Positions 3 to 45,320 of a DNA stretch of 64,000 nt are shown piece by piece. The position numbers and the translations under genes are program-made. Position 1 is the first letter of the stretch, and the number at the start of each line of letters is the position of its first letter. Where the stretch lies: NCBI GenBank assembly GCA_040766645.1, contig JAXGQA010000002.1, positions 37,424 through 101,423 of the forward strand, given 5' to 3'. Source of the stretch: Christensenellales bacterium. GTDB taxonomy: Bacteria; Bacillota; Clostridia; Christensenellales; UBA1431. A model generated the notes under the pieces. That model did not search any database. It worked only from the letters and a program-made list of their open reading frames with translations, and was not told the DNA's origin.

Positions 3-3000
3 TCGGGAGGCAGGCTGTCAGAGCCGGAGGCCCCTTCGCGGGACGGGTTCGCGTTCACAGGGTGGTACAGGACGGCGGACTGCGCGGGCACAGCCTTTGA
101 TTTCGCGTCGGATACGGTGGACGGCGATATCACGCTGTTCGCGGGATGGGAGCTGCATTCGCTGGGCGCGCCGCAGGGCCTTTCGGTAGCCGGCGTCACC
201 TACGATTCCGTGCGCCTGCGTTGGAACGCGGTCGCGAACGCCGATTCTTACAGGGTGCTGCGGGCCGTGGCTGCGGCCGGGCCGTATGAGGAAGCGGGGA
301 CGGTCACGGATACGGAGTTCGATGACAGGGGCCTTGCGACCGGAACCAGCTATTATTACAAGGTACAAGCCTGTCATAACGGGCAGACACTGCCCGAGGC
401 GCTGTCCGGCGCAATTGCGGCCACGCCGCGGCTGTCCGCGCCGGGGAGCCTGAAAGCCGCGTCAAGCCGCTACGACAGGATAAAGCTGACGTGGGGCGCG
501 GTGCCGGGCGCCAACGGGTACAGGATATACAGGGCCGCGTCGGCGACCGGGACGTACGCGCAGGTCGGGACCGTGACCGGGACCGCGTACGAGAACACGG
601 GGCTTGCGACCGGTGTCAGATACTATTACAAGGTGCTGGCCTACAGGACAGTGGGCGCGAATACGGTCACCGGGCCGCTGACCGGCGCCGTATCGGCGGC
701 GCCCGTATTTTCGGCGCCGGGGAACCTGAAGGCGGCGTCGGTGCGCTACGACAGTATAAAGCTGACGTGGAACGCGGTGCCGGGCGCGCGGTACGCGGTA
801 TACAGGGCTGCGTCGGCGAACGGTCCGTACACGCGCCTCGTTTTCACCACATCGACCAGCTATACCAGCACCGGCTCTTGCGACCGGGAAAACGTATTAC
901 TATAAGGTGCGGTCCTACCGCTGGGCCGGGAGACCCGCGTATACGGGAACACGACGGCGGCCGTTTCGGCAAAGCCGGTATTTTCGGCGCCGGGGAACGT
1001 GAAGGCGGCGTCGGTGCGCTACGACAGTATAAAGCTGACGTGGAGCGCGGTGACGGGCGCGCGGTATGCGGTATACAGGGCCGCGTCGGCGAACGGTCCG
1101 TACACACGCCTCGTTTTCACCACGTCGACCAGCTATACCAGCACCGGCCTTGCGACCGGGAGGACGTATTACTATAAGGTGCGGTCCTACCGCTGGGCAG
1201 GGAGCACGCGCGTATACGGGAACACGACGGCGGCCGTTTCGGCAAAGCCGGTATTTTCGGCGCCGGGGAACGTGAAGGCGGCGTCGGCGCGCTACGACCA
1301 AATCAAACTGACCTGGAACGCGGTGCCGGGCGCGGGAGGGTATTCGGTGTACCGGGCCACCTCGTCCGCCGGCGCGTACACGCCATTGGGCAGCACTCCG
1401 TCCCTGAGCTATACCAACACCGGCCTGACCACCGGGCAAACCTATTACTATAAGATAAAGCCCTACCGGATGGCGGGCAAAACCCCCGTGTATGGCAATG
1501 CTTCGGGCGCCATAACGGGTGTGCCCGTGTTCGCCGCCCCGACCGGTTTCACCGCCTCCAGCGGGGGTTTTGACCGCATCAACCTCGCGTGGAACGCGGT
1601 GCCGGGCGCGGAAGGATATTCGGTGTACCGGGCCACCTCGTCCGCCGGCGCGTACACGCATTGGGCGGATACCACGTCCACCAGAGCAACCAACTATGGG
1701 GTCACGCTGAATAAAGCTTATTATTATAAAATAAAGCCTTATCGTACCGCGGGCGGCACGCGCGTATACGGAAACGGCACGTCCGTGAAGGGGGCCGCTG
1801 CCAAAGCCACCGTGCCCGGATCGATATCAGCCAAGGCGGGGTCGGACAGGGAAATCGTGGTGACGTGGAGCGCGGTGGGCGGCGCGACCGGGTACGAGCT
1901 CTACCGGAAGAAGACGTCCGCCGGCACCTATGCGCTGATCAGGGAGTTAACGGCGAACTGCGGCGCGGACACCGGCCTCGAAATGGGCGCGCAGTACTAT
2001 TACAAGGTGCGCGCATTCCGGGTGGTGGACGGCCGCCGCTATTACAGCGGGTGCACCAGGGAAGTCACGGCCAGGCCCGGCGCAAACGGCGTGCTGGACA
2101 GGATGATGACCATAGCGGCGGGCGAGCTGGGGTACGAGGAAATAAAGACCTCCCCCGGCCAGGAAGACGGCTGGACCAAATACGCGATAGACTACGGCAT
2201 CGACAAATACAGCGCGTGGTGCGCGTGCTTCGTTTCGTGGTGCGCCAAGCAGGTGGGTGTGCGGGACACGCTGATACCCAAGTACGCCTGGGTGCTGAGC
2301 GGGAAGGCCTGGTACCAGTCCAGGGGGCGCTATCAGTCGGTCAGTTCGAGCTATGTGCCCCGCAAGGGGGACGTCATCTTCTTCCATTCGGTGGGCGCCA
2401 GCACGACCTCCGGCAACCACACCGGGCTGGTGGAGGCCTACGACCCTGAGGCGCAGATCATCTACACCATTGAGGGCAACATCGGCGACAAGGTGAACCG
2501 GGACACACACGACCGCCACAGCGGCTACGTGGTCGGATTCGGCGTGAACGGCGGGTACAGCCTCGGCGAGGTCCCCACGCCCGCCCCGAGGAATCTCCAG
2601 GCCGCGTCGGCATCCTACGACAGCATACGGCTGAGCTGGGCGTCGGCCGGCACGGGCTGCACCTACGAGGTCTACAGGGCCACGTCCTTCCAGGGGACCT
2701 ATTCGCGCGTCGCGACGACCACGTCGCTGAATTACACCAACACCGGCCTTAAGACCGGTACGACGTATTATTACAAGCTGCGCGCGTACAGGACGGTGGG
2801 AAGCCAGAAAAAGTACAGCGCTTACACCTCGTATGTATCCGCGTACGCGCGGCCGGCGACGCCGTCCAACGTCAGAGCAGCGGGGGACGAAAGCGGCATC
2901 ACCGTGTCCTGGAACGCGGTGGCCGGCGCCACGGGATACGAGGTCAGCCGCGCGACGGCCGCGAACGGGACGTTCACGCTGATAAAGGACGTGGCGGCCA

Positions 3001-3134
3001 TCAGCTATACGGATGCCGCCTGCGCCCCCGGCACGGCATATTATTACAGGGTGCGCGCATATCATACCGAGGACGGCAAGAAGATATACGGGAGCTATTC
3101 GCCGGCCGCCGCCGGTCAAAGGCCGGAGTCCTGA
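3..3134 (+). pseudogene. Secreted peptidoglycan hydrolase, 5' end outside window. Architecture: Listeria-Bacteroides (InlB B-type) repeat + 7 FN3 modules + CHAP amidase/peptidase domain + 2 FN3 modules. Frame broken between ~877 and ~930 as assembled.
   Basis: Frame 3 is open from base 3 (DGFAFTGWYRTADCAGTAFDFASDTVDGDITLFAGW, List_Bact-type repeat). Nine ~91-aa units carry YDSI.L.W..V.GA.GY.VYRA.S..G.Y...T.YT.TGL.TG..YYYKV.AY (FN3-like). CHAP signature KYSAWCACFVSWC ... GDVIFFH ... GNHTGLV ... TIEGN lies at ~2200-2480. ORFs 117..905 and 999..3134 share one frame. Comparison with the next repeat copy shows a +1 indel (ggctcttgc vs ggccttgc, ~875) and a -1 indel (~925). Confidence 0.8.
712..1257 (+). 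repeat. Two near-identical tandem copies of a 273-bp (91-aa) FN3-encoding unit inside the hydrolase gene
   Basis: gtgcgctacgacagtataaagctgacgtgg occurs at 741 and 1014 (offset 273 bp). Flanking sequence is almost identical across the whole unit. The other FN3 units are much more diverged. Confidence 0.8.
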
Positions 3135-14535: not shown

Positions 14536-14607
14536 GCCTCCTTAGTCTAGCGGTTAGGACGCCGCCCTCTCACGGCGGTATCAGGGGTTCGAGTCCCCTA
14601 GAGCCAC
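14536..14607 (+). tRNA. tRNA-Glu (anticodon CUC), no encoded CCA, acceptor stem imperfect as assembled
   Basis: D arm GTC-TAGCGGTTA-GGAC. Anticodon arm CCGCC-CTCTCAC-GGCGG (loop C-U-CUC-A-C). T arm AGGGG-TTCGAGT-CCCCT. Body is closely similar to the canonical bacterial tRNA-Glu that I recall. 5' GCCTCCT versus 3' AGAGCCA do not pair fully. Confidence 0.75.
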
Positions 14608-18680: not shown

Positions 18681-19190
18681 ATGACGGGATTCAAGGAGAT
18701 ACCGGCCGAACAGCTCGGCATCAACCCCTTTGCGGCCATCGGCTCGGAGTGGATGCTTATAACCGCGCAGATGGGCGAAAGGGTCAACGCCATGACCGCC
18801 TCGTGGGGCGGACTGGGCCGTATGTGGAACAGGAACGTCGCCTTCACGGTCATCCGGCCGCAGCGGTTCACCAAAACGCTGGTGGATGGCTCGGACACCT
18901 TCTCGCTCGCGTTTTTCGGCGGCGGGGAAAAGGAGACGCTGGGGTACATGGGGTCCGCGTCGGGCTGGAACGAGGATAAGATTGCGGGCTCGGGGCTGAC
19001 CGTCCTGCACGACGGGGAGATCCCGTACTTTGCGGAGGCCAGGGTGGTGCTTCTTTGCAAAAAGCTGTTCGCGCAGCCGTACCGCCCGGAGTCCTTCATC
19101 GCGGAGGAGCTCAACGCCGAATTCTACCCGAAATCGGACCACCATACCCTCTATATATCCGAGATACTTAAGGTATTGGTCAGGGAGTAA
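18681..19190 (+). CDS. Flavin reductase-like (FMN-binding split barrel) protein
   Basis: RBS aggagg at 18671-18676, then ATG at 18681. INPFAAIGSEWMLITAQMGERVNAMTASWGGLG ... AFTVIRPQRFT is typical of the flavin reductase family. Confidence 0.75.
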   Translation: MTGFKEIPAEQLGINPFAAIGSEWMLITAQMGERVNAMTASWGGLGRMWNRNVAFTVIRPQRFTKTLVDGSDTFSLAFFGGGEKETLGYMGSASGWNEDKIAGSGLTVLHDGEIPYFAEARVVLLCKKLFAQPYRPESFIAEELNAEFYPKSDHHTLYISEILKVLVRE

Positions 19191-19205
19191 CCTTCCGGGA
19201 AATCC

Positions 19206-19244
19206 AAAAGGCGCGCGCCCCTGCATTGGGCGGGCGCCTTTTGG
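19206..19244 (+). terminator. Rho-independent terminator ending the DUF2971...flavin reductase gene string
   Basis: aaaaggcgcgcgcc-cctgcattg-ggcgggcgcctttt: 13 of 14 positions pair, with a T-run. Confidence 0.75.
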
Positions 19245-19419
19245 AGGTTGCGCAAAGAGAAATTCAGCAATACCGGCTTTCAAAGTGTGAAAAACCATAT
19301 ACATTTTTAGTAATGTATGCTATCATATGCGTGTATGAATTGAGAGGTAAGACAGCAGGAATCGCTAAGATTTGTGCAGGGGACAATGACGAATCTTTCC
19401 GTTTCTGCAACACTGAGGA

Positions 19420-19500
19420 TAAAAGGCAACCCGCGCGAAAGCGCGGGCTCGCAAAGCCAGGAGTCTAAAGCGCGATGACGCGCCATGATTGTCCGGTTGC
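19420..19500 (+). promoter_or_regulatory. c-di-GMP-I (GEMM-I) riboswitch aptamer in the adhesin 5' leader
   Basis: AAAAGGCAACC (19421-19431). CCGCGC-GAAA-GCGCGG hairpin (19431-19446). CUCGCAAAGCC (19448-19458). Second hairpin capped by GCGCG-AUGA-CGCGC (19470-19483). 3' GGUUGC (19495-19500) pairs back to GCAACC (19427-19432). The layout parallels the GGCAAACC..GAAA..GGGACGCAAAGCC core of GEMM-I that I recall. Confidence 0.75.
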
Positions 19501-19538
19501 TGTCCTGAAAAGAGGATGCAACCGGGCGTTTTGTTTTG
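19493..19538 (+). terminator. Riboswitch expression-platform terminator
   Basis: CCGGTTGC (19493-19500) ... GCAACCGG (19518-19525), followed by gcgTTTTgTTTTg. The 5' arm is shared with the aptamer closing helix. Confidence 0.7.
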
Positions 19539-19580
19539 CAAAACAGGCACTTGGCTATATCGAAAAGGAGGGTATTGAGT

Positions 19581-22500
19581 ATGAAGCTGATAACGAAAAA
19601 AACGGGGAGAAAAGGACTGGCGCTGCTGATTGCGGTGCTGATGGTGCTGGCCCTGCTGCCGGTGAGCGCGCTGGCGGCTGCGGAGCCGACATGGCCCAGC
19701 CCGGGTTCCGTCAAGATCGATAAAATCAAAACGGACACCAGCGATCCGGGTCAGTGGAAGATCAAGCTGACGGTAGAGGGCAAAAACGTTACCAAGACAT
19801 CGGACGTAGTCTTGGTGATGGATTGCTCGTACAGCATGAGCCAGAACCTCGGCGGTTCCTCAAAGATCAGCCAGGCAAGAAACGCGGCAAACAGTTTCGT
19901 GAACAGCCTGCTTCCTACAGGCAACACGACAAACAGGATAGCAGTGGTCAAATTCAGTACGAACGCAACCCGCGTGATTGGTCTGACAGGGGCCTCAAAC
20001 AGAAGCGCTGTGATATCAGCCATCAACGGGCTCACGGCGGACAGCTACACGAACATCGGAGCGGGGTTGGATGAGGCCCGGTCCATTTTAAATGCAAGCC
20101 CGGCGGACGACAAGGTCATCGTGCTGTTGAGCGATGGCCTGCCCAACCGGCCGGGCAGCGGAACGAATCCGACCACTCAGGGAAGGACCGCGGCAATCAA
20201 CGCAGCGACCGCAGCGAAAAACGCAGGGTGCGGCATCTACGCCATAGGCTATGATGTCGCCAGCGACCCGGGAGCGGGAGAACTGCTCAACGAGATACAG
20301 AGCGAGGGCTATTATCCGGCGGGGGCGGATCTCCAGTCTGTTTTTCAGCAGATTGCCGGGAGCATAGCCAATGCGGGGACGCTGGCTAAAGTCATCGACC
20401 TGATGGAAGATGAGTTCGATTACGTGCCGGGCAGTGCTGTAGTATCTCCTTCAGATACGTCGGTAACACATGACCCGGCCACGGACACGCTGACTTGGAC
20501 CATCGGCAACATAGTGGAAGGCACGACCTACACACTGGAATACCTTATCCAGTTTACGCCGGACATTACTCTCTCGCCTGGCGATTATCCTACCAATAAG
20601 GACAATACGCGGTTAGAATACAAAAACGCCGGTGGGGCCAGCGTGACCAAGTATTTCCCGATCCCCAAGGTGACCGTGGCCGCCCAGAAGTATACGGTGC
20701 ACCATTATCTGTGGAACGGCGGGCCGACGACCACACAGGTTTCGGGGTCTGAAACCAAGGACACGGTTCGCGGCGCCAGGATAACCTCGGCGAACCAGCA
20801 AAGGTTGCTACAGGGGTACACCTACAATTCGGCCACTCCGACGATTCTGACAGTGGGGCAAAACAACAGCCAGAACGTCATCAAAGTATACTATACGCAG
20901 AACGAATACACGGTGAAGTACCAGCCGGGCACGCAGGGAACGTTTGCGGAACAGAGCGCCTCAGGCCTGCACTACGGCGACGCCACACCGGACTTTGACG
21001 GGACGCCGACGGGGAACCCGGGGTGGTCGTTCGCGGGCTGGAGCCCGGCGGTGGCCGACACTGTGACAGGCGACGCGACGTATGTGGCACAGTGGACGCA
21101 GAACGAGTACACGGTGAAGTATCAGCCGGGCATCAGGGAACGTTTGCGGAACAGAGCACCTCAGGCCTGCACTACGGCGACGCCACACCGACTTGACGGG
21201 ACGCCTGCCGGGAACCCGGGGTGGTCGTTCGCGGCTGGAGCCCGGCAGTGGCCGACACCGTAACAGGCGACGCGACGTATGTGGCGCAGTGGACGCAGAA
21301 CGAGTACACGGTGAAGTATCAGCCGGGCACGCATGGAACGTTTGCGGAACAGAGCAACTCGGGACTGCACTACAACGACGACACCCCGGCCTTCATCGGG
21401 GAAAAGACGGCGCAGCCGGGCTGGGCGTTCACGTGGGCTGGAGTCCGGCGGTGGCTGATACAACAGGCGACGCGACGTACGTGGCGCAGTGGGCACAGAT
21501 ACCGTACACGGTAACGTATATGCCGGGCGAACACGGGACGTTTACACCGCAGAGCACATTAGAGCTGCACTACAACGACAATACACCGGGCTTCGTGGAA
21601 AAGACCGGGCAACCGGGTTGGACATTCAGTGGCTGGAGTCCGGCGGTGGCCGAAAAGGTGACCGGCAACGCGGTATACGTAGCGCAGTGGACGCAGAAAA
21701 CGAATATACGTGAAGTATCAGCCGGGCACGCAGGGAATGCTCGCGGAGCAGAGCACAGGAAGCCTGCACTACGGCGACGCCACACCGGGACTTTGACGGG
21801 ACGCCGACGGGAACCCGGGTGGCGTCGTTCGCGGGCTGGAGCCCCGGAAGTGGCCGACACTGTAACAGGCGACGACGTATGTGGCGCAGTGGACGCAGAA
21901 CGAGTACACGGTGAAGTACCAGCCGGGCATACAGGGAACGTTTGCTGAACAGAGCACCTCAGGCCTGCACTACGGCGACGCCACACCGGACTTTGACGGG
22001 ACGCCGACGGGGAACCCGGGGTGGTCGTTCGCGGGCTGGAGCCCCGAAGTGGCCGACACTGTAACAGGCGACGCGACGTATGTGGCGCAGTGGACGCAGA
22101 ACGAGTACACGGTGGCGCACGCCGGGCACGCATGGAACGTTTGCGGAACAGAGCAACTCGGGACTGCACTACAACGACGACACCCCGGCCTTCATCGGGG
22201 AAAAGACGGCGCAGCCGGGCTGGGCGTTCACGGGCTGGAGTCCGGCGGTGGCTGATAAGGTAACAGGCGACGCGACGTACGTGGCGCAGTGGGCACAGAT
22301 ACCGTACACGGTAACGTATATGCCGGGCGAACACGGGACGTTTACACCGCAGAGCACATTAGAGCTGCACTACAACGACAATACACCGGGCTTCGTAGGA
22401 GAAAAGACCGGGCAACCGGGTTGGACATTCAGCGGCTGGAGTCCGGCGGTGGCCGAAAAGGTGACCGGCAACGCGGTATACGTAGCGCAGTGGACGCAGA

Positions 22501-24352
22501 ACGAATATACGGTGAAGTATCAGCCGGGCACGCAGGGAACGTTTGCGGAGCAGAGCACAGGAAGCCTGCACTACGGCGACGCCACACCGGACTTTGACGG
22601 GACGCCGACGGGGAACCCGGGGTGGTCGTTCGCGGGCTGGAGCCCCGAAGTGGCCGACACTGTAACAGGCGACGCGACGTATGTGGCGCAGTGGACGCAG
22701 AACGAGTACACGGTGAAGTACCAGCCGGGCATACAGGGAACGTTTGCTGAACAGAGCACCTCAGGCTCGTAATTGAAGGCGACGCCACACCGGACTTTGA
22801 CGGGACGCCGACGGGGAACCGGGGTGGTCGTTCGGCGGGCTGGAGCCCCGAAGTGGCCGGACACTGTGACCGGCGACGCGACGTATGTGCACAGTGGACG
22901 CAGAACGAGTACACGGTGAAGTATCAGCCGGGCACGCAGGGAACGTTTGCGGAGCAGAGCACTTCGGGACTGCACTACGGCGACGCCACGCCGGACTTTG
23001 ACGGGACGCCGACGGGGAACCCGGGGTGGTCGTTCGCGGGCTGGAGCCCGGCGGTGGCTGATAAGGTAACAGGCGACGCGGTATACGTAGCGCAGTGGAC
23101 GCAGAACGAATATACGGTGAAGTATCAGCCGGGCACGCAGGGAACGTTTGCGGAGCAGAGCACAGGAAGCCTGCACTACGGCGACGCCACGCCGGACTTT
23201 GACGGGACGCCGACGGGGAACCCGGGGTGGTCGTTCGCGGGCTGGAGTCCGGCGGTGGCCGAAAAGGTGACCGGCAACGCGGTATACGTAGCGCAGTGGA
23301 CGCAGAACGAATATACGGTGAAGTATCAGCCGGGCAATGCAGCAGGGAACGTTTGTGGAGCAGAGCACAGGAAATTGCACTACGGCGACGCCACACCGGA
23401 CTTTGACGGGATGCCGATGGGGAACCCGGGGTGGTCGTTCGCGGGCTGGAGTCCGGCGGTGGCCGACAAGGCAACAGGCGACGCGACGTACGTGGCGCAG
23501 TGGGCGCAGATACCGTACACGGTAACGTATATGCCGGGCGAACACGGGACGTTTACACCGCAGAGCACATTAGAGCTGCACTACAACGACAATACACCGG
23601 CCAGGAGAAAGACCGCAACCGGGTTGACATTCAGCGGCTGGAGTCCGGCGGTGGCCGAAAAGGTGACCGGCAACGCGGTATACGTAGCGCAGTGGACGCA
23701 GAACGAATATACGGTGAAGTATCAGCCGGGCGCGCAGGGAACGTTTGTGGAGCAGAGCACAGGAAATCTGCACTACGGCGACGCCACACCGGACTTTGAC
23801 GGGACGCCGACGGGGAACCCGGGGTGGTCGTTCGCGGGCTGGAGTCCGGCGGTGGCCGAAAAGGTGACAGGCGACGCGACGTATGTGGCGCAGTGGAAAC
23901 AGAACGAGTACACGGTGACATACGCGCCGGGCGAGCACGGGGCCTTTGAAGAGCAGAAGACCGAAGGCCTGCATTATGGCGACGATACGCCCGGATTCAA
24001 TGGTGAGCCGGAGGGCAACGACGGCTGGCTCTTCGCGGGCTGGAGCCCCGAAGTGGCCGAAACGGTGACCGGCGATATCATCTATGAGGCGCAGTGGGAA
24101 GAGATCGTTATAGTGCCCACGCCGACGGTGCCTTTGGGCCCGGTGGTGACGCCCACGCCGGGGGCGACGCAGACGCCGGCGCCGACGCTCTCGCCCGAGC
24201 CTACGGTGCAGGTGCCCGAGGAATCCGTTCCGGCGGCATTGCCGGTAACTGGCGAGCAATCCCAGGATTGGATGTTCCTGGCCGGCGCGCTGGTGCTGGC
24301 GGCAGGGGCCATACTCCTCGTCTTCCGCAAGCGGAAGCCAGGCGTAAAGTAA
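19581..24352 (+). pseudogene. Large LPXTG-anchored surface adhesin: signal peptide, vWA (MIDAS) domain, Ig-like stalk, 16 Listeria-Bacteroides-type repeats, sortase signal. Multiple frameshifts as assembled.
   Basis: RBS ggaggg, then ATG at 19581: MKLITKKTGRKGLALLIAVLMVLALLPVSALA. MIDAS motif VVLVMDCSYSMS, then NRIAVVKFS ... VIVLLSDGLPN. Repeat units NEYTVKYQPGTQGTFAEQS..LHYGDATPDFDGTPTGNPGWSFAGWSPAVADTVTGDATYVAQWTQ. C-terminus LPVTG (24239-24253) + hydrophobic helix + RKRKPGVK. Pieces appear as ORFs 19536..21263, 21221..21514, 21193..21948, 21881..22255, 22080..22772 and 22853..24352. Confidence 0.85.
20901..24102 (+). repeat. Coding tandem array: 16 units of ~200 bp (~66 aa) with an ~800-bp higher-order period
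   Basis: Unit starts (NEYTVKY / IPYTVTY) fall near 20901, 21100, 21300, 21500, 21700, 21900, 22100, 22300, 22500, 22700, 22905, 23105, 23305, 23510, 23705 and 23900. Three unit flavours occur: GDATPDFDGTPTGNPGWSFAGW, NDDTPAFIGEKTAQPGWAFTGW and IPYTVTYMPGEHGTF..NDNTPGFVGEKTGQPGWTFSGW. The block ~21100-21900 recurs at ~21900-22700. Confidence 0.85.
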
Positions 24353-29757: not shown

Positions 29758-30528
29758 GTGGTGAGCGAGCGTTTGAAAGGGGACGTGGCCGTGGTGACCG
29801 GGGCCGCGTCCGGGCTGGACAGGGGGATAGCGCTGGAGCTTTCCCGGCACGGCGCGATGGTGGCCTGTCTGGACATCACCGACGCCGAGAACAGAAAAAG
29901 ACCGCGCAGCTGATTCGCGACGCGGGCGGCGAGGCGTTCGCGGTGCACGTCGACACGTCGGATTCGGCTTCGGTGAAGGCGGCCATGCGGGAGGTCTTTA
30001 CGCGCGCCGGGAAGATAACCATACTGGTCAACGGCGCGGGCATCGTTCGCTTCAACCCGATAGAAGAGTGCAGCGACGAGGAATGGGAGGCGGTGCTGCG
30101 CGTCAACCTCACCGGGTATTTTTATGCGCCTGCGGGAGGTTTACCCCTACATGAAGCAGTCGGGCGGCGGACGCATCGTGCAGTTGTCGTCCACCTCGGC
30201 CAAGAGCGGGAGCAACTTCGGCGGCCCGCATTACACGGCGGCCAAGGGCGGCATCATCAGCCTGACCAAGTACGCCGCGCGCAGGTGGTGCCGCGACAAC
30301 ATCCGCGTGAACACCATCTGCCCGGGCATCTCGAACACCCCGATGGCCGTGGAGCCGGACGCGCCGGAGGGGGCGCTTCAGAGCATGCTGAACAACATAC
30401 CCATGGGCCGCCTGTGCGAGCCGGAGGACATCGCCGGGGGCGTGGTCTTTCTGGTGACCGACGAGAGCCGCTACATCACCGGCATCACGCTGGACATCAC
30501 CGGCGGGCGCTACATGTACGGAAACTGA
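29758..30528 (+). pseudogene. SDR family oxidoreductase (FabG-like), two homopolymer frameshifts as assembled
   Basis: GTG at 29758 after ggagga. LKGDVAVVTGAASGLDRGIALEL ... [A-run indel ~29893] ... TAQLIRDAGGEAFAVHVDTSD ... ILVNGAGI ... [T-run indel ~30118] ... MRLREVYPYMKQSGGGRIVQLSSTS ... YTAAKGG ... NTICPG. Confidence 0.8.
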
Positions 30529-30630
30529 CGCAATTTACCGCAAAAAGGCTTTTGCTTAACCGCGAAAGCCTTTTTTCACGCGCGCCGATGCTGTATAATG
30601 TTGGTTACACATAACCAGCGGAGGAGAAGG

Positions 30631-39531: not shown

Positions 39532-40870
39532 ATGAAAGATTATCCACACCCGTGCGGCTGGACCGGATGGGTGCAAGGGCTGCACAAACTGCATAGTATT
39601 GTCCCACGCAAGCCATACGTCAGCGTGGGGCAAGGCCTGCATCATCGCGGGCGAGCGCTGCAATGATCGCGGCGAATGCGCGGCAAATCTCCACCACGCC
39701 AAGATAGCCGTGACCGACGGGATGGAGAGCATGGAGCGTTTCCGGTACCGCATCGCGCTGCCGGCGCCGTCGCTGTACGGGCAGTTCAAGAACCTCCAGT
39801 CCATCGACCGGCTGCTGGACGCGCTTATTAACATCGGGTTCGACGACGTGTTCGAGGTCGCGCGCGGGGCCGACATGGTGACCGAGGCCACGCGCAGGCT
39901 TTGCCGCCTGGTGCGACAAGCGGCCGCTGATATCCTCTGCCTGCCCGGCGGTGTGCGGCTTATCCGCGTGCGTTTCCCCGCTTCTGCAGCACATATCCAA
40001 CATCGACTCGCCCATGGAGGTGGCGGCCACCATCGCCCGGCGAGTTCGCTGCGCGGCGTCAGCCCCGACGAGATAGGCGTTTTCTTCATCACGCCCTGCG
40101 CGGCCAAGATGACCAGCGTGATGAATCCCCTGGGACGGCCCACCACCGGCGTGGACGGGACCATATCCATCGTAGACATTTTCGGGGTTCTCAACGCGCA
40201 GCTCGGGCAGGCGGATATGAAGCGGCACGGCCTGAAGGCGCACGCGCTGCCCGCCGGCGTCGGATGGGCGGCGACCGGCGGCGAGGGCGAGGCGCTGGGG
40301 CGGGACAGCCACCTGTCGGTGGACGGGATACACAACATCATCCGGATGTTCGAGGAAGTGGAGAACGGGAAGTTCTCGGACCTGAAGTTTATCGAGGCGC
40401 TGGCCTGCACCGGCGGGTGTCTGGGCGGGCCGCTCACGTTTGAGAACAGCTACGTCGCCAAGATGCGGCTGGCGGGGCTCATCGCCAACATGCCCCGCGG
40501 ACAGGGGATGTCCGAGGCGGACATCGCGTTCGCGCACAGCGACAGGATGTATCTCAGCGAGCCGATAGAGCCTCTGCCCGTCGAGCGGCTGGACAGCGAT
40601 ATCGGGGAGGCCATCAAAAAGCTGGAGCGGGTCAATGCGCTCAGCGAGATACTGCCCGGGCTGGACTGCGGCTCCTGCGGCTCCCCCAACTGCCGGACGC
40701 TGGCCGAGGACATCGTGCGCGGGGACGCCGTGGAGCTGGACTGCATATTCCTGCTGAAAAACAAGGTCGCCTACCTCGCCAACGAGATGGTGAAGCTCGC
40801 GAGCGTGGACCATGCCTTCGACCAGCCGGAGCAGGCGGAGGGCGGCCCCAAACCAAAGGAAAGAGGTTGA
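39532..40870 (+). pseudogene. [FeFe]-hydrogenase-like protein (2x[4Fe-4S] ferredoxin N-terminus + Fe_hyd_lg_C-type domain + C-terminal CxxCxxxxC Fe-S motif), putative redox/H2 sensor; frameshifted as assembled
   Basis: ATG at 39532. CKGCTNC and CIDCGEC-type motifs are recoverable around 39560-39690 after frame correction. IALPAPSLYGQFKNL ... FDDVFEVARGAD. H-cluster-like Cys contexts: SSACPAVVRLIRVRFP (other frame, ~39930), FFITPCAAKMTS, IEALACTGGCLGGP. C-terminal LDCGSCGSPNCRTLAEDIV. Confidence 0.75.
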
Positions 40871-41214
40871 GGGACTTGACGGTAGCACAGCTTATGGAGC
40901 TTATCGACGGGACGCTTTTGACACAGGCCGGGACCGACAAAGAAATTTCCTCGGGGTGCGTGTGCGACCTTCTGAGCTGGGTGATGGCCCACGCCAGGCC
41001 GGGCGGGGTGTGGGTCACCGTGCAGACCCACTTGAACGTGGTGGCGGTCGCCGAGCTTAGTGACCTTGCCTGCGTGGTCCTGCCCTGCGGCATGGAGATG
41101 GAGCAGGCGGCCCTGGAAAAGGCGGGGGAGACGGGGCTTGCCGTCCTGTCCAGCCCGATGAGCGCTTTCGACATTGCCGGCATCCTGTACGCGCAGAACG
41201 TCAGGGGTGCCTGA
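40867..41214 (+). CDS. DRTGG-domain protein (second copy)
   Basis: LTVAQLMELIDGTLLTQAGTDKEISSGCVCDLLSWVMAHARPGGVWVTVQTHLNVVAVAELSDLACVVL ... AGETGLAVLSSPMSAFDIAGILY. TTG start overlaps the preceding stop. Confidence 0.7.
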   Translation: MRDLTVAQLMELIDGTLLTQAGTDKEISSGCVCDLLSWVMAHARPGGVWVTVQTHLNVVAVAELSDLACVVLPCGMEMEQAALEKAGETGLAVLSSPMSAFDIAGILYAQNVRGA

Positions 41215-41217
41215 AAA

Positions 41218-41937
41218 ATGAAGCTGGCGGCGGACCTGCACATACACAGTTGCCTGTCCCCCTGCGGGGACGACGACATGACGCCCAACAACATCGTGAA
41301 CATGGCCTATATCAAGCAACTGGGCGCCATAGCCGTTACCGACCACAACAGCGCGAAGAACCTCCCCGCCGTCGCGGAGGTTGCCAAAGCGCGCGGGCTG
41401 GTGCTGGTGCCCGGGCTGGAGGTGCAGACGCGGGAGGAAGTGCACCTTCTGTGCTATTTTGGGGAGTTGGAGGACGCGCTCCGGTTCGGCGACGTTCTAT
41501 ACGCGCATCTTCCCGGACTGCCGGCCAGCCCGGACGTGTTCGGCGAACAGCGCATCCTTAATGAAAATGACGAGCTTATCGGGACGGAACCCAGGCTTTT
41601 GATACAGTCGCTGGACCTGAGCATCGAACAGGTGGCCGCGTTGACCCGGGAGTACGGCGGGCTGGTGGTGCCCGCCCACGTTAACAAATCCGCAAACTCC
41701 ATTTTCTGCAACCTTGGTTTCATACCGCCGGGACTCGACTTTCCCGCGCTGGAAGTGTACAGAAAGGCGCCGCTTCCCGACGCCGACCTTTCCGGATACC
41801 ACCTTATCTACGCGTCGGACGCTCACTGCCTTTCGCAGATACTTGAGGCCGAGTTTTTCGTCGATGTAGAAACCTGCTCGGCCCGGGGCGTGCTGCGCGC
41901 ACTCCGGCGCTCTGACGGCCCGGAGGGCCTGCCCTAA
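41218..41937 (+). CDS. PHP-domain (polymerase/histidinol-phosphatase-like) metal-dependent phosphoesterase
   Basis: MKLAADLHIHSCLSPCGDDDMTPNNIVNMA ... AVTDHNS ... GLEVQTREEVHLLCYF ... PAHVNK ... ASDAH. Confidence 0.8.
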   Translation: MKLAADLHIHSCLSPCGDDDMTPNNIVNMAYIKQLGAIAVTDHNSAKNLPAVAEVAKARGLVLVPGLEVQTREEVHLLCYFGELEDALRFGDVLYAHLPGLPASPDVFGEQRILNENDELIGTEPRLLIQSLDLSIEQVAALTREYGGLVVPAHVNKSANSIFCNLGFIPPGLDFPALEVYRKAPLPDADLSGYHLIYASDAHCLSQILEAEFFVDVETCSARGVLRALRRSDGPEGLP

Positions 41938-42075
41938 AATGGTTATACAACAATCCTGAATAATTAGTGCATTTTTTGACGATGTATGATAAAATACAAA
42001 AGGTTGTGAAGGTCTTTTTGGTGTATTCATATAAAGTGGTTCATTTTTGCTTTGTTTAAGGAGGTTGTTCAAGGA

Positions 42076-42543
42076 ATGAGTCAGGACAAATTCGACCAAC
42101 TCCAGGCTGTGATCGACCAGTACAAGGACGCCAACGGCCCGCTGATGCCTATCATGCAGAAAGCGCAGGACATCTTCGGGGCGGTCACGTTCGAAGTGCA
42201 GCACTTCATAGCGGAGAAGATGGGCATCCCCATGACCGACGTATATGGCGTGGCGACGTTCTACTCGCAGTTTGCGCTCGAACCCAAGGGCGAGTATCTG
42301 GTGAGCGTCTGTCTGGGCACCGCATGCTACGTCAAGGGCGTGCAGAACGTGATGGAGCGCCTGAAGGAAAAGCTGGGCGTGGACGTCGGCCGGACTACCA
42401 AGGATGGCAAGTTCACGCTGGAAGCGACGCGCTGCCTCGGCTGCTGCGGCCTTGCGCCGGTCATGACCATAAACGAGAACGTTTACGGGCGTCTGGTTCC
42501 TGAAGACGTGGATCGCATCCTCGCTGAGTACGCGAAGAACTAG
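42076..42543 (+). CDS. NuoE-type [2Fe-2S] subunit (HydC-like) of an NADH-linked electron-bifurcating-type complex
   Basis: GPLMPIMQKAQDIFG ... VATFYSQF ... VCLGTACYVKG ... ATRCLGCCGLAPVMTIN. Confidence 0.85.
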   Translation: MSQDKFDQLQAVIDQYKDANGPLMPIMQKAQDIFGAVTFEVQHFIAEKMGIPMTDVYGVATFYSQFALEPKGEYLVSVCLGTACYVKGVQNVMERLKEKLGVDVGRTTKDGKFTLEATRCLGCCGLAPVMTINENVYGRLVPEDVDRILAEYAKN

Positions 42544-42558
42544 GGACCGGTCAGGGCC

Positions 42559-43116
42559 GTGGAAGAGATCTCGCTGCATGTGCTGGATATCGTCGAGAAC
42601 GCGATAGGCGCCTTAGCCACGTTTATACAAATCGAGATAGATGAGCAGGAAGCGGACGATACGCTCTGCGTGCAGGTGACCGACAACGGCAGGGGCATGC
42701 CGGCCGAATTCGCGGAAAAGGCCGACGACCCCTTCGTGACCACCCGGACGACGCGCAGAGTCGGGCTGGGGCTGCCGCTCTTCAAGCAGGGGGCCGTGGC
42801 CACCGGGGGCACGTTCGAGATACATTCCGAAATGGGCGCGGGGACGCGCGTCCGCGCGGTCTACCGGCGGTCGCACATCGACCGGCCGCCGCTGGGGGAC
42901 ATGGCGGGCACGGTGTTGGCCCTGATAGCCGTGAATCCCGATATCGATTTTGAATACGCACACCGGTACGGTGACAGGTCGTTCACGCTGGACACGCGGG
43001 AAGTCCGCGAAAAGCTGGGGGACGACGTTCCCCTGAGCGCGCCGATGGTTCAGGCATGGCTCAGGGACTACCTTCACGAGGGTGAAGCAGAACTTTATGG
43101 AGGTGTTGGCAAATGA
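42559..43116 (+). CDS. Histidine-kinase-like ATPase (HATPase_c only) embedded in the hyd operon
   Basis: HVLDIVENAIGA ... VTDNGRGMPAEF ... RRVGLGLPLFKQ ... GAGTRV. There is no HisKA or phospho-acceptor region. Confidence 0.75.
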   Translation: MEEISLHVLDIVENAIGALATFIQIEIDEQEADDTLCVQVTDNGRGMPAEFAEKADDPFVTTRTTRRVGLGLPLFKQGAVATGGTFEIHSEMGAGTRVRAVYRRSHIDRPPLGDMAGTVLALIAVNPDIDFEYAHRYGDRSFTLDTREVREKLGDDVPLSAPMVQAWLRDYLHEGEAELYGGVGK

Positions 43117-43481
43117 AATCTTTGCAAGAGCTTGAAGCTATCCGAAATGAAACGCTGGATTCCATGAACCTGAGGAAAGAGCACGACGGGACCCGCATCG
43201 TGGTCGGCATGGCCACCTGCGGCATCGCGGCCGGCGCCCGCCCCGTGCTTTTGAAGATTATGGAAGAGGTGCAGAAGCGCAACCTTTCCCACGTCGTCGT
43301 GGCCCAGACCGGCTGTATCGGCCTGTGCCGGCTCGAACCCATCGTCGAGGTGTTCAAGCCGGGACAGGAGAAGGTCACCTATGTGAAGATGACCCCCGAG
43401 CTTGCCTCAAAAGTGGTCGCCGAGCACATTGTCAACGACAATGTTGTGGAGTCGCAGACCATAGGCAAGTTCCAGGCATAA
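43113..43481 (+). CDS. Thioredoxin-like [2Fe-2S] ferredoxin
   Basis: IVVGMATCGIAAGARPV ... VAQTGCIGLCRLEPIVEV. ATG overlaps the preceding stop (ATGA). Confidence 0.8.
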   Translation: MKSLQELEAIRNETLDSMNLRKEHDGTRIVVGMATCGIAAGARPVLLKIMEEVQKRNLSHVVVAQTGCIGLCRLEPIVEVFKPGQEKVTYVKMTPELASKVVAEHIVNDNVVESQTIGKFQA

Positions 43482-43525
43482 CGGCAGCGTAAGGTTCATT
43501 TTCTTGTGTGTTAGGAGGATATGAC

Positions 43526-45320
43526 ATGGATTTCTATCGTTCACACGTTTTGGTATGCCATGGTACGGGGTGTACGTCTTCGGATTCGCCGGGCATAAAA
43601 AAACAGTTTGAAGAAGCTATAGCGGCAAAAGGGCTGGACAAAGAGGTGCAGGTGGTCATGACGGGGTGTTTCGGCCTCTGCGCGTTGGGTCCGGTGGTCA
43701 TCATATACCCTGAAGGCTCGTTTTACAGCCGCGTGACCGTTGACGACGTCGACGAAATCGTGGAGGAGCATCTGGTCAAGGGCCGTATCGTATCGAGGCT
43801 CCTCTATCAGGAGAGCATCGCTCCCGACGCCTCCATTCGCTCCCTTGAGGAAGTGGATTTCTATAAAAAGCAAAAGCGCGTGGCGCTGCGCAACTGCGGC
43901 GTCATCAACCCCGAAAAGATTGAGGAATACATCGCGATGGACGGCTACAAGGCGCTGGGTAAGGTCCTTACCGAGATGAAGCCGCAGGAAGTCATCGACA
44001 TCATCAAGGCTTCGGGCCTGCGCGGCCGCGGCGGCGGCGGTTCCCCACCGGCGTCAAGTGGAGTTTTGCGAGCAACAGCACCGGCCAGAAATACGTCATC
44101 TGCAACGCGGACGAGGGCGACCCCGGCGCGTTCATGGACAGGTCCGTGCTGGAGGGCGACCCCAACGTCGTGCTGGAGGCCATGGCCATCGCGGGCTATG
44201 CCATCGGCGCGTCCCAGGGGTACATCTATGTGCGCGCCGAGTACCCCATCGCGGTCAAACGCCTGGAGATCGCTCTCGGTCAGGCGCGCGAGATGGGCCT
44301 TTGGGCAAGGATATCTTCGGCACCGGCTTTGATTTCGACATCGAGATACGCCTCGGGTCGGGCGCGTTCGTGTGCGGCGAGGAGACCGCGCTGATGGCGT
44401 CCATCGAGGGCGAGCGCGGCGAGCCGCGGCCCCGCCCGCCGTTCCCGGCCATCAAGGGGCTTTTCGGCAAGCCGACCATCATCAACAACGTCGAAACCTA
44501 CGCCAACATACCGCAGATCATCCTGAACGGGGCCGAGTGGTTCGCTTCCATGGGCACCGAGAAGAGCAAGGGCACCAAGGTGTTCGCGCTGGGCGGCAAG
44601 ATAGAGAACACCGGACTTGTTGAGATTCCCATGGGCACCACCCTGCGTGAGATCATTTATGAGATAGGCGGCGGCATCCCGGGCGGCAAGGCCTTCAAGG
44701 CCGTGCAGACCGGCGGCCCCTCCGGCGGCTGCATCACCACCGAGAACCTCGATATCCCCATCGACTATGACAACCTCATCTCCATAGGCTCCATGATGGG
44801 GTCGGGCGGGATGATCGTCATGGACGAGGACAACTGCATGGTGGACATCGCCCGCTTCTTCCTCGACTTCACTGTCGACGAGTCCTGCGGGAAGTGCCCC
44901 ACCTGCCGCATAGGCACCAAGCGCATGATCGAGATGCTGGATAAGATCTGCTCCGGCAAGGGCGAAGACGGCGACCTCGAGCGCCTCGAAGACCTCGCGG
45001 CGACCATCAAGAGCACCGCTCTGTGCGCGCTTGGGCAGACGGCCCCCAACCCCGTGCTGTCCACCATCCGCTACTTCCGCGACGAGTACGAGGCGCACAT
45101 CAAGGAGAAGCGCTGCCCCGCGGGCGTATGCAAGCACCTCCTGCAGGTTATAATCGACAAGGAGAAATGCAAAAAGTGCTCGCTGTGCTCAAAGGTGTGT
45201 CCGGTGTCGGCCATCTCCGGTGTGGTCAAGGAAACGCCGTTTGAGATCGACCAAACCAAGTGTATCAAGTGCGGCGCCTGCATAGAGAAGTGCCCGTTCG
45301 GCGCCATTAGCAAGAAGTAA
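43526..45320 (+). pseudogene. NuoF-type NADH-binding flavoprotein subunit (HydB-like) with N-terminal [2Fe-2S] and C-terminal 2x[4Fe-4S]; two T-run frameshifts as assembled
   Basis: MDFYRSHVLVCHGTGCTSS ... GLRGRGGGG[F]PTGVKW (ggtttcccc reads ggttcccc at ~44041) ... [13 protein letters not shown] ... REMGL[L]GKDIFG (ccttttggg reads cctttggg at ~44300) ... [15 protein letters not shown] ... [10 protein letters not shown] ... [12 protein letters not shown] / [12 protein letters not shown]. Confidence 0.88.

What the first reader, a model, noticed from the sequence alone, without database searches (positions are those of the whole stretch)
19420..19538. c-di-GMP-I riboswitch with a terminator whose 5' arm is the aptamer closing strand (predicted ON switch) in front of the giant adhesin gene
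Seen in the sequence:
- GGCAACC, then a CCGCGC-GAAA-GCGCGG hairpin, then CUCGCAAAGCC.
- A second hairpin capped by GCGCG-AUGA-CGCGC.
- A 3' GGUUGC that can pair back to GCAACC to close the aptamer.
- The same CCGGUUGC (19493-19500) can instead pair with GCAACCGG (19518-19525), followed by a U-rich tract. That gives an intrinsic terminator 43 nt before the adhesin start codon.

Established knowledge: GEMM-I aptamers carry the GGCAAACC / GAAA-tetraloop / ACGCAAAGC core and often precede surface-protein, pilus or motility genes in Clostridia.

Inference: ligand binding sequesters the terminator 5' arm, so high c-di-GMP would switch adhesin transcription on. The aptamer has GGCAACC rather than GGCAAACC, which may be one more homopolymer under-call.
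Basis: partly seen in the sequence, partly recalled or inferred. Interest (0 to 1): 0.7.

Follow-up and report, generated by a model that had tools for sequence, protein, structure and literature searches.

The report
c-di-GMP riboswitch before an adhesin gene
This is a genuine but ordinary class I c-di-GMP riboswitch whose built-in terminator should let a large cell-wall-anchored adhesin gene be transcribed only when c-di-GMP is high, a design already proven in Bacillus thuringiensis.

Summary
Window 19415-19504 (+) matches Rfam RF01051 (c-di-GMP-I) at 64.6 bits against a gathering score of 35. All 22 model pairs are standard pairs, and class II gives no hit. The ligand-contact positions are canonical: G19425, A19453, C19500.

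A strong hairpin at 19491-19527 (-26 kcal/mol, z -6.05) is followed by GUUUUGUUUUGC and ends 43 nt before the ATG at 19581. Its 5' arm is made entirely of aptamer 3' strands: P3, then C92, then P1. Aptamer and terminator therefore exclude each other, which is the layout of an ON switch.

- The closing helix P1 is AGGAUA/UGUCCU (19416-21/19501-06). GCAACC/GGUUGC is only a possible ligand-free misfold.
- GGCAACC needs no base-calling error. All 20 such loci I tested in other genomes are family members.

The downstream gene encodes a signal peptide, a VWA domain, a tip-pilin-like Ig domain, about 16 InlB B-repeats and an LPVTG anchor. Its frames are broken by assembly indels.

Among relatives sharing the same P3 base, 38 of 54 have the same overlapping terminator, often ahead of VWA or B-repeat surface proteins. 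The closest proven case is Bc2/cap of B. thuringiensis. This is a new member of a known kind. Regulation itself is untested.

The parts
19298..19326 (+). Promoter-like site: TATACA, 17-nt spacer, TG-extended TATCAT. It would start the leader about 85-90 nt before the aptamer.
   Evidence: the only sigma-70-like match in 18800-19800, 9 of 12 positions with TG. This is a consensus match only. The upstream gene ends at 19190 and is followed by an imperfect GC-rich hairpin plus UUUU at 19210-19243 (read by eye).
19415..19504 (+). c-di-GMP-I (GEMM-I) aptamer as matched by the Rfam model.
   Evidence: RF01051, 64.6 bits against gathering 35, model positions 1-87 of 87; all 22 model pairs are standard pairs.
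19416..19421 (+). P1 5' strand, AGGAUA. It pairs with 19501-19506.
   Evidence: Direct reading of the sequence, and the energy evaluation. In relatives, a helix of at least 4 bp starting right after the C92 position occurs in 59% of cognate flank pairs against 14% of non-cognate pairs, with many different sequences.
19425..19427 (+). G19425 is the equivalent of Vc2 G20, which contacts the ligand. G19426-C19427 pair with G19451-C19452.
   Evidence: alignment and pair list. Roles of G20, A47 and C92 come from PMC4744006 and PMC5888326. Mapping to Vc2 numbering is my inference from the consensus.
19430..19447 (+). P2 hairpin, CCCGCGC-GAAA-GCGCGGG, with a GNRA tetraloop at 19437-19440.
   Evidence: Searches give six model pairs. 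C19430-G19447 can add a seventh pair.
19450..19453 (+). C19450 is the equivalent of the interhelical C44. G19451-C19452 is the junction pair. A19453 is the equivalent of the intercalating A47.
   Evidence: alignment. PMC4744006 for the conserved interhelical pair and the contact residues.
19455..19498 (+). P3 hairpin. The base is AGCC-A-GGAGUC (19455-65) paired with GAU-UG-UCCGGUU (19487-98). It carries the CUAA / AUG tetraloop-receptor region and the tip GCGCG-AUGA-CGCGC (19470-83).
19500..19500 (+). C19500, the equivalent of Vc2 C92, which forms a Watson-Crick pair with one guanine of the ligand.
   Evidence: alignment and PMC5888326. The mapping is inferred.
19501..19506 (+). P1 3' strand, UGUCCU. 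It is also the inner part of the terminator's 5' arm.
19491..19527 (+). Intrinsic terminator hairpin. 19491-19500 pairs with 19518-19527 (10 bp). U19501 is bulged. 19502-19506 pairs with 19513-19517 (5 bp). The loop is GAAAAG.
   Evidence: -26.0 kcal/mol, z -6.05, 0 of 200 shuffles as stable. It is present in the minimum-energy fold and centroid of the whole leader. The simple terminator scan missed it because of the bulge.
19528..19539 (+). U-rich tail of the terminator, GUUUUGUUUUGC.
19564..19583 (+). Ribosome-binding site AAAGGAGGG (19564-72) and start codon ATG (19581-83).
   Evidence: The frame is confirmed.
19581..24352 (+). Regulated gene for an LPXTG-anchored surface adhesin: signal peptide, VWA domain, GBS104-like tip-pilin Ig domain, about 16 InlB-type B-repeats of 67 aa (201-nt period, 20907-24110), a Pro/Thr-rich linker, LPVTG, a membrane helix and a basic tail. 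Many 1-nt indels spread it over three frames.
   Evidence: for the translations. VWA 7.7e-21, GBS104-like_Ig 8.8e-11, Flg_new_2, Gram_pos_anchor; repeat units of 197, 200 and 203 nt, with indels mostly in G, C or T runs.

Best explanation
The 5' leader of the adhesin mRNA is a transcriptional ON riboswitch of class I for c-di-GMP.

Shown by computation:
- The aptamer is a full, canonical RF01051 member with the G/A/C ligand-contact triad.
- It has a GAAA tetraloop and receptor.
- It has a 6-bp P1.
- A strong terminator hairpin follows directly.
- The hairpin's 16-nt 5' arm (19491-19506) consists of the P3 3' strand, C92 and the P1 3' strand.

Inferred mechanism:
- At low c-di-GMP, the nascent RNA does not lock P1 and P3. 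The downstream arm (19513-19527) captures the shared strand, the terminator forms, and transcription stops at the U tract, 43 nt before the start codon.
- At high c-di-GMP, ligand binds as soon as the aptamer has been transcribed, up to 19506. It bridges G19425, A19453 and C19500 and stabilises P1 and P3, so the shared strand is withheld. Polymerase then reads through into the gene for a sortase-anchored VWA / B-repeat adhesin.
- Only about 7-21 nt separate the end of the aptamer from the competing arm, so the decision is probably kinetic.

The physiological sense is the usual one: high c-di-GMP means a sessile, adherent state.
For: Aptamer:
- RF01051 scores 64.6 bits against gathering 35, and no other family reaches its threshold.
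- There is no class II match at E <= 10.
- All 22 model pairs are standard pairs.

Mutual exclusion:
- The minimum-energy fold and centroid of 19405-19545 contain the terminator, not P1 or the P3 base.
- Canonical aptamer plus P1 scores -38.2 kcal/mol. Terminator plus P2 plus the P3 tip scores -51.0. The best fold with the aptamer enforced scores -46.9, against a free minimum of -58.2.
- The terminator alone is -26.0 kcal/mol, z -6.05.

Recurrence:
- Of 54 distinct class I instances sharing CGCAAAGCCAGGAGTCTA, 38 have a U-tract-flanked hairpin using at least 5 of the last 12 aptamer positions. Pair types vary at several positions, for example U-A or C-G.
- Nine of these loci were confirmed by Rfam.
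- The same design precedes homologous or similar surface proteins. Paenibacillus L235 has a VWA adhesin 37% identical over 378 aa, E 1e-58. L114, L214 and L227 have VWA proteins. L147, L241 and L253 have B-repeat proteins.

Precedent: the class I riboswitch Bc2 of B. thuringiensis is an experimentally shown ON switch that relieves an intrinsic terminator ahead of the LPXTG collagen adhesion protein Cap (PMC4933901; review PMC6366702).
Against: - No binding or termination assay exists for this RNA.
- Nearest-neighbour energies favour the terminator by about 11-13 kcal/mol, so read-through depends on ligand energy and kinetics that folding programs do not model.
- The U tract is interrupted by G.
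- The review PMC6366702 stresses that direction cannot be extrapolated. All seven functional class I switches of C. difficile are OFF, and 5 of its 16 c-di-GMP riboswitches appear non-functional.
- The assembly carries many indel errors, so single bases of the leader are not guaranteed.
- The promoter is only a consensus match.
- The terminator pair counts come from predicted folds, so they lean towards pairing.
Confidence: 0.8

Rival explanations
1. The aptamer is real but is a relic, or too weak a switch. The terminator acts constitutively as an attenuator or is bypassed, and c-di-GMP does not control the adhesin.
For: In C. difficile only 11 of 16 predicted c-di-GMP riboswitches regulate their genes (PMC6366702). 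The terminator is much more stable than the competing aptamer helices. The downstream gene is frameshifted in this assembly.
Against: The aptamer keeps every conserved feature at 64.6 bits. The frameshifts look like assembly error, because the essential gyrA is split too. The same aptamer-terminator overlap is kept in 38 of 54 relatives.
Confidence: 0.1
2. It is an OFF switch, or a translational or dual switch. Ligand binding would promote termination or hide the ribosome-binding site.
For: Class I riboswitches are OFF in C. difficile, and those of V. cholerae do not act through termination (PMC6366702). Bc1 has a complex dual platform (PMC11218506, abstract only).
Against: No separate anti-terminator element lies between aptamer and terminator, because the terminator's 5' arm is the aptamer strand itself. 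I read no anti-Shine-Dalgarno (CCUCC-type) stretch in the leader 19327-19580, by eye only. With the aptamer enforced, the folded stretch ends at 19540, before the RBS at 19564-72, so RBS accessibility was not modelled.
Confidence: 0.05
3. The aptamer senses a different cyclic dinucleotide, such as 3'3'-cGAMP as in GEMM-Ib, or the unknown ligand of the GGC or UAU variants.
For: The GEMM-I fold has been re-used for other ligands (PMC5888326). Some relatives found here score best as RF03167 or carry A or C at position 20.
Against: The window has the canonical G, A and C at the three contact positions, and only RF01051 passes its threshold.
Confidence: 0.05

Closest known systems
Bc2 riboswitch upstream of cap (collagen adhesion protein), Bacillus thuringiensis BMB171 (PMC4933901). 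The related cbpA riboswitch is in PMC7423583.
   Same: It is a class I (GEMM-I) aptamer. An intrinsic terminator lies directly before the ORF. Ligand binding gives read-through (ON). The regulated product is a sortase-anchored surface adhesin.
   Different: The organism differs (a 61% GC anaerobic Bacillota lineage) and so does the adhesin architecture (VWA + GBS104-like Ig + InlB B-repeats). I did not align the Bc2 sequence here, so I did not test for detailed equivalence of the expression platforms. Bc2 is proven experimentally. This one is not.
Vc2 riboswitch of Vibrio cholerae, the structural prototype of c-di-GMP-I.
   Same: The same three-helix fold, GNRA tetraloop and receptor, G20/A47/C92 contacts and C-G interhelical pair, by alignment to the family model (PMC4744006; PMC5888326).
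   Different: According to PMC6366702, Vc2 does not act through transcription termination. The window RNA has C instead of the third junction A (GGCAAC), one extra nucleotide after P2, and U instead of A before the interhelical C.
[quoted passage not shown]
   Same: The same logic: c-di-GMP turns on LPXTG-type adhesins by preventing termination in the leader.
   Different: The aptamer class differs. RF01786 is not detected here. In C. difficile the functional class I switches are all OFF.
Class I riboswitches sharing the P3 base CGCAAAGCCAGGAGUCUA in Bacillota genomes and MAGs: L253 and L215 (MAG Betzabe_MAG021), L235 (Paenibacillus sp.), L114 and L255 (Clostridiaceae and Oscillospiraceae MAGs).
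   Same: RF01051 hits of 55-82 bits. The terminator's 5' arm is the aptamer's 3' strand. Downstream genes encode secreted VWA and/or InlB-B-repeat proteins. The L235 adhesin is 37% identical to the window's.
   Different: Several are tandem: three aptamers in L253, two in L215 and L244. The window has a single aptamer. None is an exact orthologue, and none has been studied experimentally.

Membership tests
c-di-GMP-I riboswitch (GEMM-I, Rfam RF01051) | Covariance-model score at or above the curated gathering score. | tested here: met
   64.6 bits against 35, E 2.3e-10 for the whole window, full-length match 1-87 of 87. The same hit appears in the sensitive local scan.
c-di-GMP-I riboswitch (GEMM-I, Rfam RF01051) | P2 hairpin capped by a GNRA tetraloop, and a P3 hairpin carrying the tetraloop receptor. 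| tested here: met
   GAAA loop at 19437-40 on a 6-7 bp stem. CUAA (19465-68) and AUG (19485-87) align to the conserved receptor columns. All 22 model pairs are standard pairs. The tertiary contact itself cannot be tested with these tools.
c-di-GMP-I riboswitch (GEMM-I, Rfam RF01051) | Ligand-contacting nucleotides G20, A47 and C92, and the interhelical C44-G83 pair. | tested here: met
   G19425, A19453 and C19500, plus C19450 and G19491, sit in the corresponding consensus columns. Residue roles come from PMC4744006 and PMC5888326. Mapping to Vc2 numbering is my inference.
c-di-GMP-I riboswitch (GEMM-I, Rfam RF01051) | P1 helix closing the three-way junction directly after C92. | tested here: met
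   AGGAUA 19416-21 / UGUCCU 19501-06, 6 bp. In relatives the helix is present with different sequences: 59% cognate against 14% non-cognate for at least 4 bp.
c-di-GMP-I riboswitch (GEMM-I, Rfam RF01051) | Specific, high-affinity binding of c-di-GMP. | not testable with these tools
   This needs in-line probing, gel shift or ITC.
c-di-GMP-I variant families (RF03167 GGC and the related UAU variant) and GEMM-Ib (cGAMP) | Altered nucleotides at the ligand-contact positions. | tested here: not met
   The window has G, A and C. Only RF01051 reaches its gathering score. Variant-clan matches were lower-scoring and were dropped.
c-di-GMP-II riboswitch (RF01786) | A match to the class II model. | tested here: not met
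   No match in 19300-19600 even at E <= 10, and none in the window at gathering.
Transcriptional ON riboswitch (Bc2 / pbuE-type platform) | An intrinsic terminator whose 5' arm overlaps the aptamer's 3' strands, with no separate anti-terminator. | tested here: met
   The terminator's 5' arm, 19491-19506, equals the P3 3' strand (19492-98), G19499, C19500 and the P1 3' strand (19501-06).
Transcriptional ON riboswitch (Bc2 / pbuE-type platform) | Ligand-dependent increase in read-through. | not testable with these tools
   This needs a single-round transcription assay or a reporter fusion.

The most novel reading that the evidence does not exclude
The pairing of an ON-type class I c-di-GMP riboswitch with a VWA / tip-pilin-like / InlB-B-repeat LPXTG adhesin may be a conserved and possibly mobile regulatory cassette. 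It would be shared between Paenibacillus and several uncultured anaerobic Bacillota lineages. In those lineages class I would then be predominantly an activator of adhesion, the opposite of the all-OFF class I picture from C. difficile. The duplicated GCAACC (19427-32 and 19518-23) could give a three-way strand competition among apo misfold, aptamer and terminator that tunes the switch.
Probability: 0.3. Interest if true: 0.35.

Novelty: new member of a known kind. Interest (0 to 1): 0.2.

Why it matters
It annotates the control of a major predicted surface adhesin in an uncultured, high-GC anaerobic Bacillota genome. It also adds one more example, with dozens of relatives, of class I c-di-GMP riboswitches wired as activators of adhesion. 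That is useful for genome annotation and for choosing natural ON-type c-di-GMP sensors. It does not change what is known about riboswitch mechanisms.

Tried and rejected
- Adhesin orthologues by peptide patterns in GTDB genomes: none found.
- Homologue search with the adhesin N-terminus: only 6 distant hits. The best, P0002 at 45% identity over 37% of the query, has no riboswitch upstream.
- The window's own protein could not be traced to a contig record.
- Naming the organism with PcrA: best 48% identity to any species representative. The uncapped scan returned no copy of the window's own leader, so this genome is not among the species representatives.
- Homopolymer under-call for GGCAACC: rejected as unnecessary. 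It cannot be excluded without reads, because the assembly does have such errors, and L253 carries both GGCAAC-C and GGCAAA-C versions.
Kept only as a possible apo-state alternative.
- A second element in the leader 19327-19420: nothing in Rfam and no unusual stability (z -0.93).
- The simple terminator scan missed the terminator and instead flagged the P2 hairpin on the minus strand, which is an artefact of the palindromic stem.

Full report
**Observation**

I read 19200-19700 and scanned the whole window against Rfam. Window 19415-19504 on the + strand matches RF01051, the c-di-GMP-I aptamer, over the full model (positions 1-87 of 87). The score is 64.6 bits against a gathering score of 35, with E 2.3e-10 for 64 kb on both strands.

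The only other family passing its threshold in the window is a tRNA at 14536-14606. A sensitive scan of 19300-19600 at E <= 10 found no class II (RF01786) match. Apart from RF01051 it found only noise hits, most of them on the palindromic P2 stem.

The start codon is ATG 19581, preceded by AAAGGAGGG at 19564-72.

**Anatomy of the aptamer**

I parsed the model alignment into coordinates. All 22 model pairs are standard pairs.
- G19426-C19427 pair with G19451-C19452.
- P2 is 19431-36 / 19441-46 with a GAAA loop. C19430-G19447 can add a seventh pair.
- P3 is AGCC-A-GGAGUC (19455-65) paired with GAU-UG-UCCGGUU (19487-98). Its tip is GCGCG-AUGA-CGCGC.

By position in the consensus, the three ligand-contact nucleotides of the Vc2 prototype are G19425 (G20), A19453 (A47) and C19500 (C92). 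The interhelical pair is C19450-G19491. Their roles come from PMC4744006 and PMC5888326, and the mapping is my inference. This is the canonical triad, so c-di-GMP is the expected ligand rather than cGAMP or the ligand of a variant class.

The helix that closes the junction directly after C92 is AGGAUA (19416-21) with UGUCCU (19501-06). That pairing would consume G19426-C19427 and the base of P2 and P3, so it cannot coexist with the family fold.

It may therefore be a ligand-free alternative.

Relatives support P1. Among 49 distinct related instances, a helix of at least 4 bp beginning at the first nucleotide after C92 is present in 59% of cognate flank pairs against 14% of non-cognate pairs. 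For at least 5 bp the figures are 47% against 6%. The helix sequences differ widely, for example GCATA/TATGC, CCATG/CATGG, TGAGTG/CGCTCG and GAGATA/TGTCTT.

**Expression platform**

The stretch 19491-19527 folds into a 15-bp hairpin: 10 bp, a bulged U19501, 5 bp and a GAAAAG loop. It is followed by GUUUUGUUUUGC.
- Its energy is -26.0 kcal/mol with z -6.05, and none of 200 shuffles folds as well.
- It is in the minimum-energy fold and centroid of the whole leader.
- The simple terminator scan missed it because of the bulge.

Its 5' arm (19491-19506) is made up of G19491, the P3 3' strand, G19499, C19500 and the P1 3' strand. Aptamer and terminator therefore exclude each other completely, and there is no separate anti-terminator.

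Energies for 19410-19540:

| Structure | kcal/mol |
|---|---|
| Canonical aptamer with P1 | -38.2 |
| Terminator plus P2 plus P3 tip | -51.0 |
| Best fold with the aptamer enforced | -46.9 |
| Free minimum-energy fold | -58.2 |

Termination is the default. Read-through needs the ligand's binding energy and a kinetic head start. This is the classic layout of a transcriptional ON riboswitch.

**The GGCAACC question**

The model aligns GGCAAC to the consensus GGCAAA as a substitution, with one inserted nucleotide after P2. About half of them look like full GEMM-I aptamers from many phyla.

All 20 that I submitted to Rfam gave a clan hit at the pattern site. Nineteen were RF01051 at 38-73.6 bits, and one was RF03167. 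They include isolate genomes such as Alicyclobacillus, Thermobacillus xylanilyticus, Bacillus salacetis and Desulfotomaculum copahuensis.

The variant is therefore natural, and no base-calling error needs to be invoked. An error cannot be excluded, though, because this assembly clearly has indel errors (see the next section).

**The regulated gene**

From ATG 19581 the product has a signal peptide, a VWA domain (7.7e-21) and a GBS104-like tip-pilin Ig domain (8.8e-11). Then come InlB-type B-repeats, a Pro/Thr-rich linker, LPVTG, a hydrophobic helix and a basic tail.

The repeats have a 201-nt period from 20907 to 24110. Several units are 197, 200 or 203 nt long, and their alignment shows 1-nt indels mostly in G, C or T runs. 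This is why the gene is spread over three frames.

The essential gyrA is also split between two frames, and gyrB and other genes appear as fragments. These are therefore most likely assembly errors and not pseudogenisation. Repaired, the protein would be about 1590 residues, which is large but not giant.

The leader appears to be its own transcription unit. The upstream flavin-reductase-like gene ends at 19190 and is followed by a hairpin plus UUUU. One promoter-like site with an extended -10 lies at 19298-19326.

**Relatives**

The adhesin has few relatives in the protein database. The nearest one has no riboswitch upstream.

Searching by the riboswitch itself was more productive. The 18-mer CGCAAAGCCAGGAGTCTA, which spans the junction and the P3 base, occurs in 58 stretches of the species-representative genomes, almost all Bacillota. 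The window's own leader was not among them, so this genome is not represented.

The most similar leaders are in a Bacillota MAG (Betzabe_MAG021):
- L253 has three tandem aptamers. The first also reads GGGCAACCCGCAUG and shares the ...GGUUGCUGUCUU... 3' end.
- L215 has two tandem aptamers.

Nine loci checked with Rfam all carry RF01051, or RF03167 in L227, at 55-82 bits.

By an automated criterion, 38 of 54 distinct instances have the same overlapping terminator. The criterion was a hairpin ending within 4 nt of a run of at least 4 U, at -8 kcal/mol or better, using at least 5 of the 12 aptamer positions starting at the P3 3' strand. The pairs change type between instances, for example U-A or C-G at two positions. 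These counts rest on predicted folds, so they lean towards pairing.

Downstream genes are typically secreted surface proteins:
- VWA proteins in L214, L227 and L114.
- B-repeat proteins in L147, L241 and L253.
- In Paenibacillus sp. L235, a VWA adhesin 37% identical to the window's over 378 residues, E 1e-58.

**Comparison with what is known**

Bc2 of B. thuringiensis is a class I riboswitch with an intrinsic terminator adjacent to the cap ORF. c-di-GMP was shown in vitro and in vivo to increase read-through into this collagen adhesion protein gene (PMC4933901).

In C. difficile the sortase-anchored adhesins CD2831 and CD3246 are switched on by class II riboswitches, while its seven functional class I switches are all OFF. 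The review warns that direction must be evaluated case by case (PMC6366702).

The window element works like Bc2 and passes every membership feature of RF01051 that can be tested in silico. Ligand binding and ligand-dependent read-through remain untested.

**Verdict**

The finding is real and correctly interpreted in its main line, with two details corrected. It is a new member of a well-known kind, in an unnamed 61% GC anaerobic Bacillota genome that carries [FeFe]-hydrogenase genes.

Interest is low to moderate. Its value is in annotation, plus the broader hint that ON-type class I switches ahead of VWA and B-repeat adhesins are common in Bacillota.

Noticed in passing
window 19581-24352; 46431-50673; 29943-30614; 44058-45320: The assembly has frequent 1-nt indels. 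The adhesin repeats have units of 197, 200 and 203 nt instead of 201. The essential gyrA is split between frames: 48429-49187 holds Pfam profile positions 39-98, and 48727-50673 holds 122-431. gyrB, an SDR and a NuoF-like gene appear as fragments. Gene calls in this window need frameshift-aware handling.
   Followed up: partly
L253 410-807; L215 6609-6912; L244 306-567: Tandem class I c-di-GMP aptamers occur in related Bacillota MAGs: three in L253, two in L215 and two in L244. They lie ahead of secreted B-repeat or large surface proteins. This resembles the triple-tandem Bc3-5 described in B. thuringiensis (PMC4759541).
   Followed up: partly
L204, L205, L209, L219, L224, L234, L242 (A at position 20); L206, L210, L217, L223, L232 (C at position 20); L227 and L188 (RF03167): Among relatives sharing the same P3 base, the nucleotide at the G20 ligand-contact position is A in several Bacillus, Mesobacillus and Lachnospiraceae loci and C in several Paenibacillus loci. 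Two loci score best as the c-di-GMP-I-GGC variant. Ligand specificity in those relatives may differ from c-di-GMP.
   Followed up: no
L235 4699-8000 (Paenibacillus sp. GCM10027626): An RF01051 aptamer (74.7 bits) with an overlapping terminator precedes a VWA adhesin 37% identical to the window's N-terminal 380 residues. The riboswitch-adhesin pairing therefore spans Bacilli and the window's lineage.
   Followed up: partly
window 19427-19432 and 19518-19523: GCAACC occurs twice, once at the aptamer's 5' junction and once in the terminator's 3' arm. Both copies are complementary to GGUUGC 19495-19500. This allows a three-way competition among apo misfold, aptamer and terminator.
   Followed up: partly
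window 14536-14606 (+): A tRNA gene scores 46.1 bits against Rfam RF00005, with a mismatch and a deletion in the acceptor stem that may be another assembly error.
   Followed up: no
window 39599-45320: [FeFe]-hydrogenase large-subunit, 2Fe-2S thioredoxin-like and NuoF-like genes suggest an anaerobe with an electron-bifurcating hydrogenase.
   Followed up: no
window 999-3134 (+): A 711-aa ORF carries fibronectin type III and CHAP domains plus a weak match to the GH85 C-terminal domain. This could be a secreted cell-wall hydrolase.
   Followed up: no
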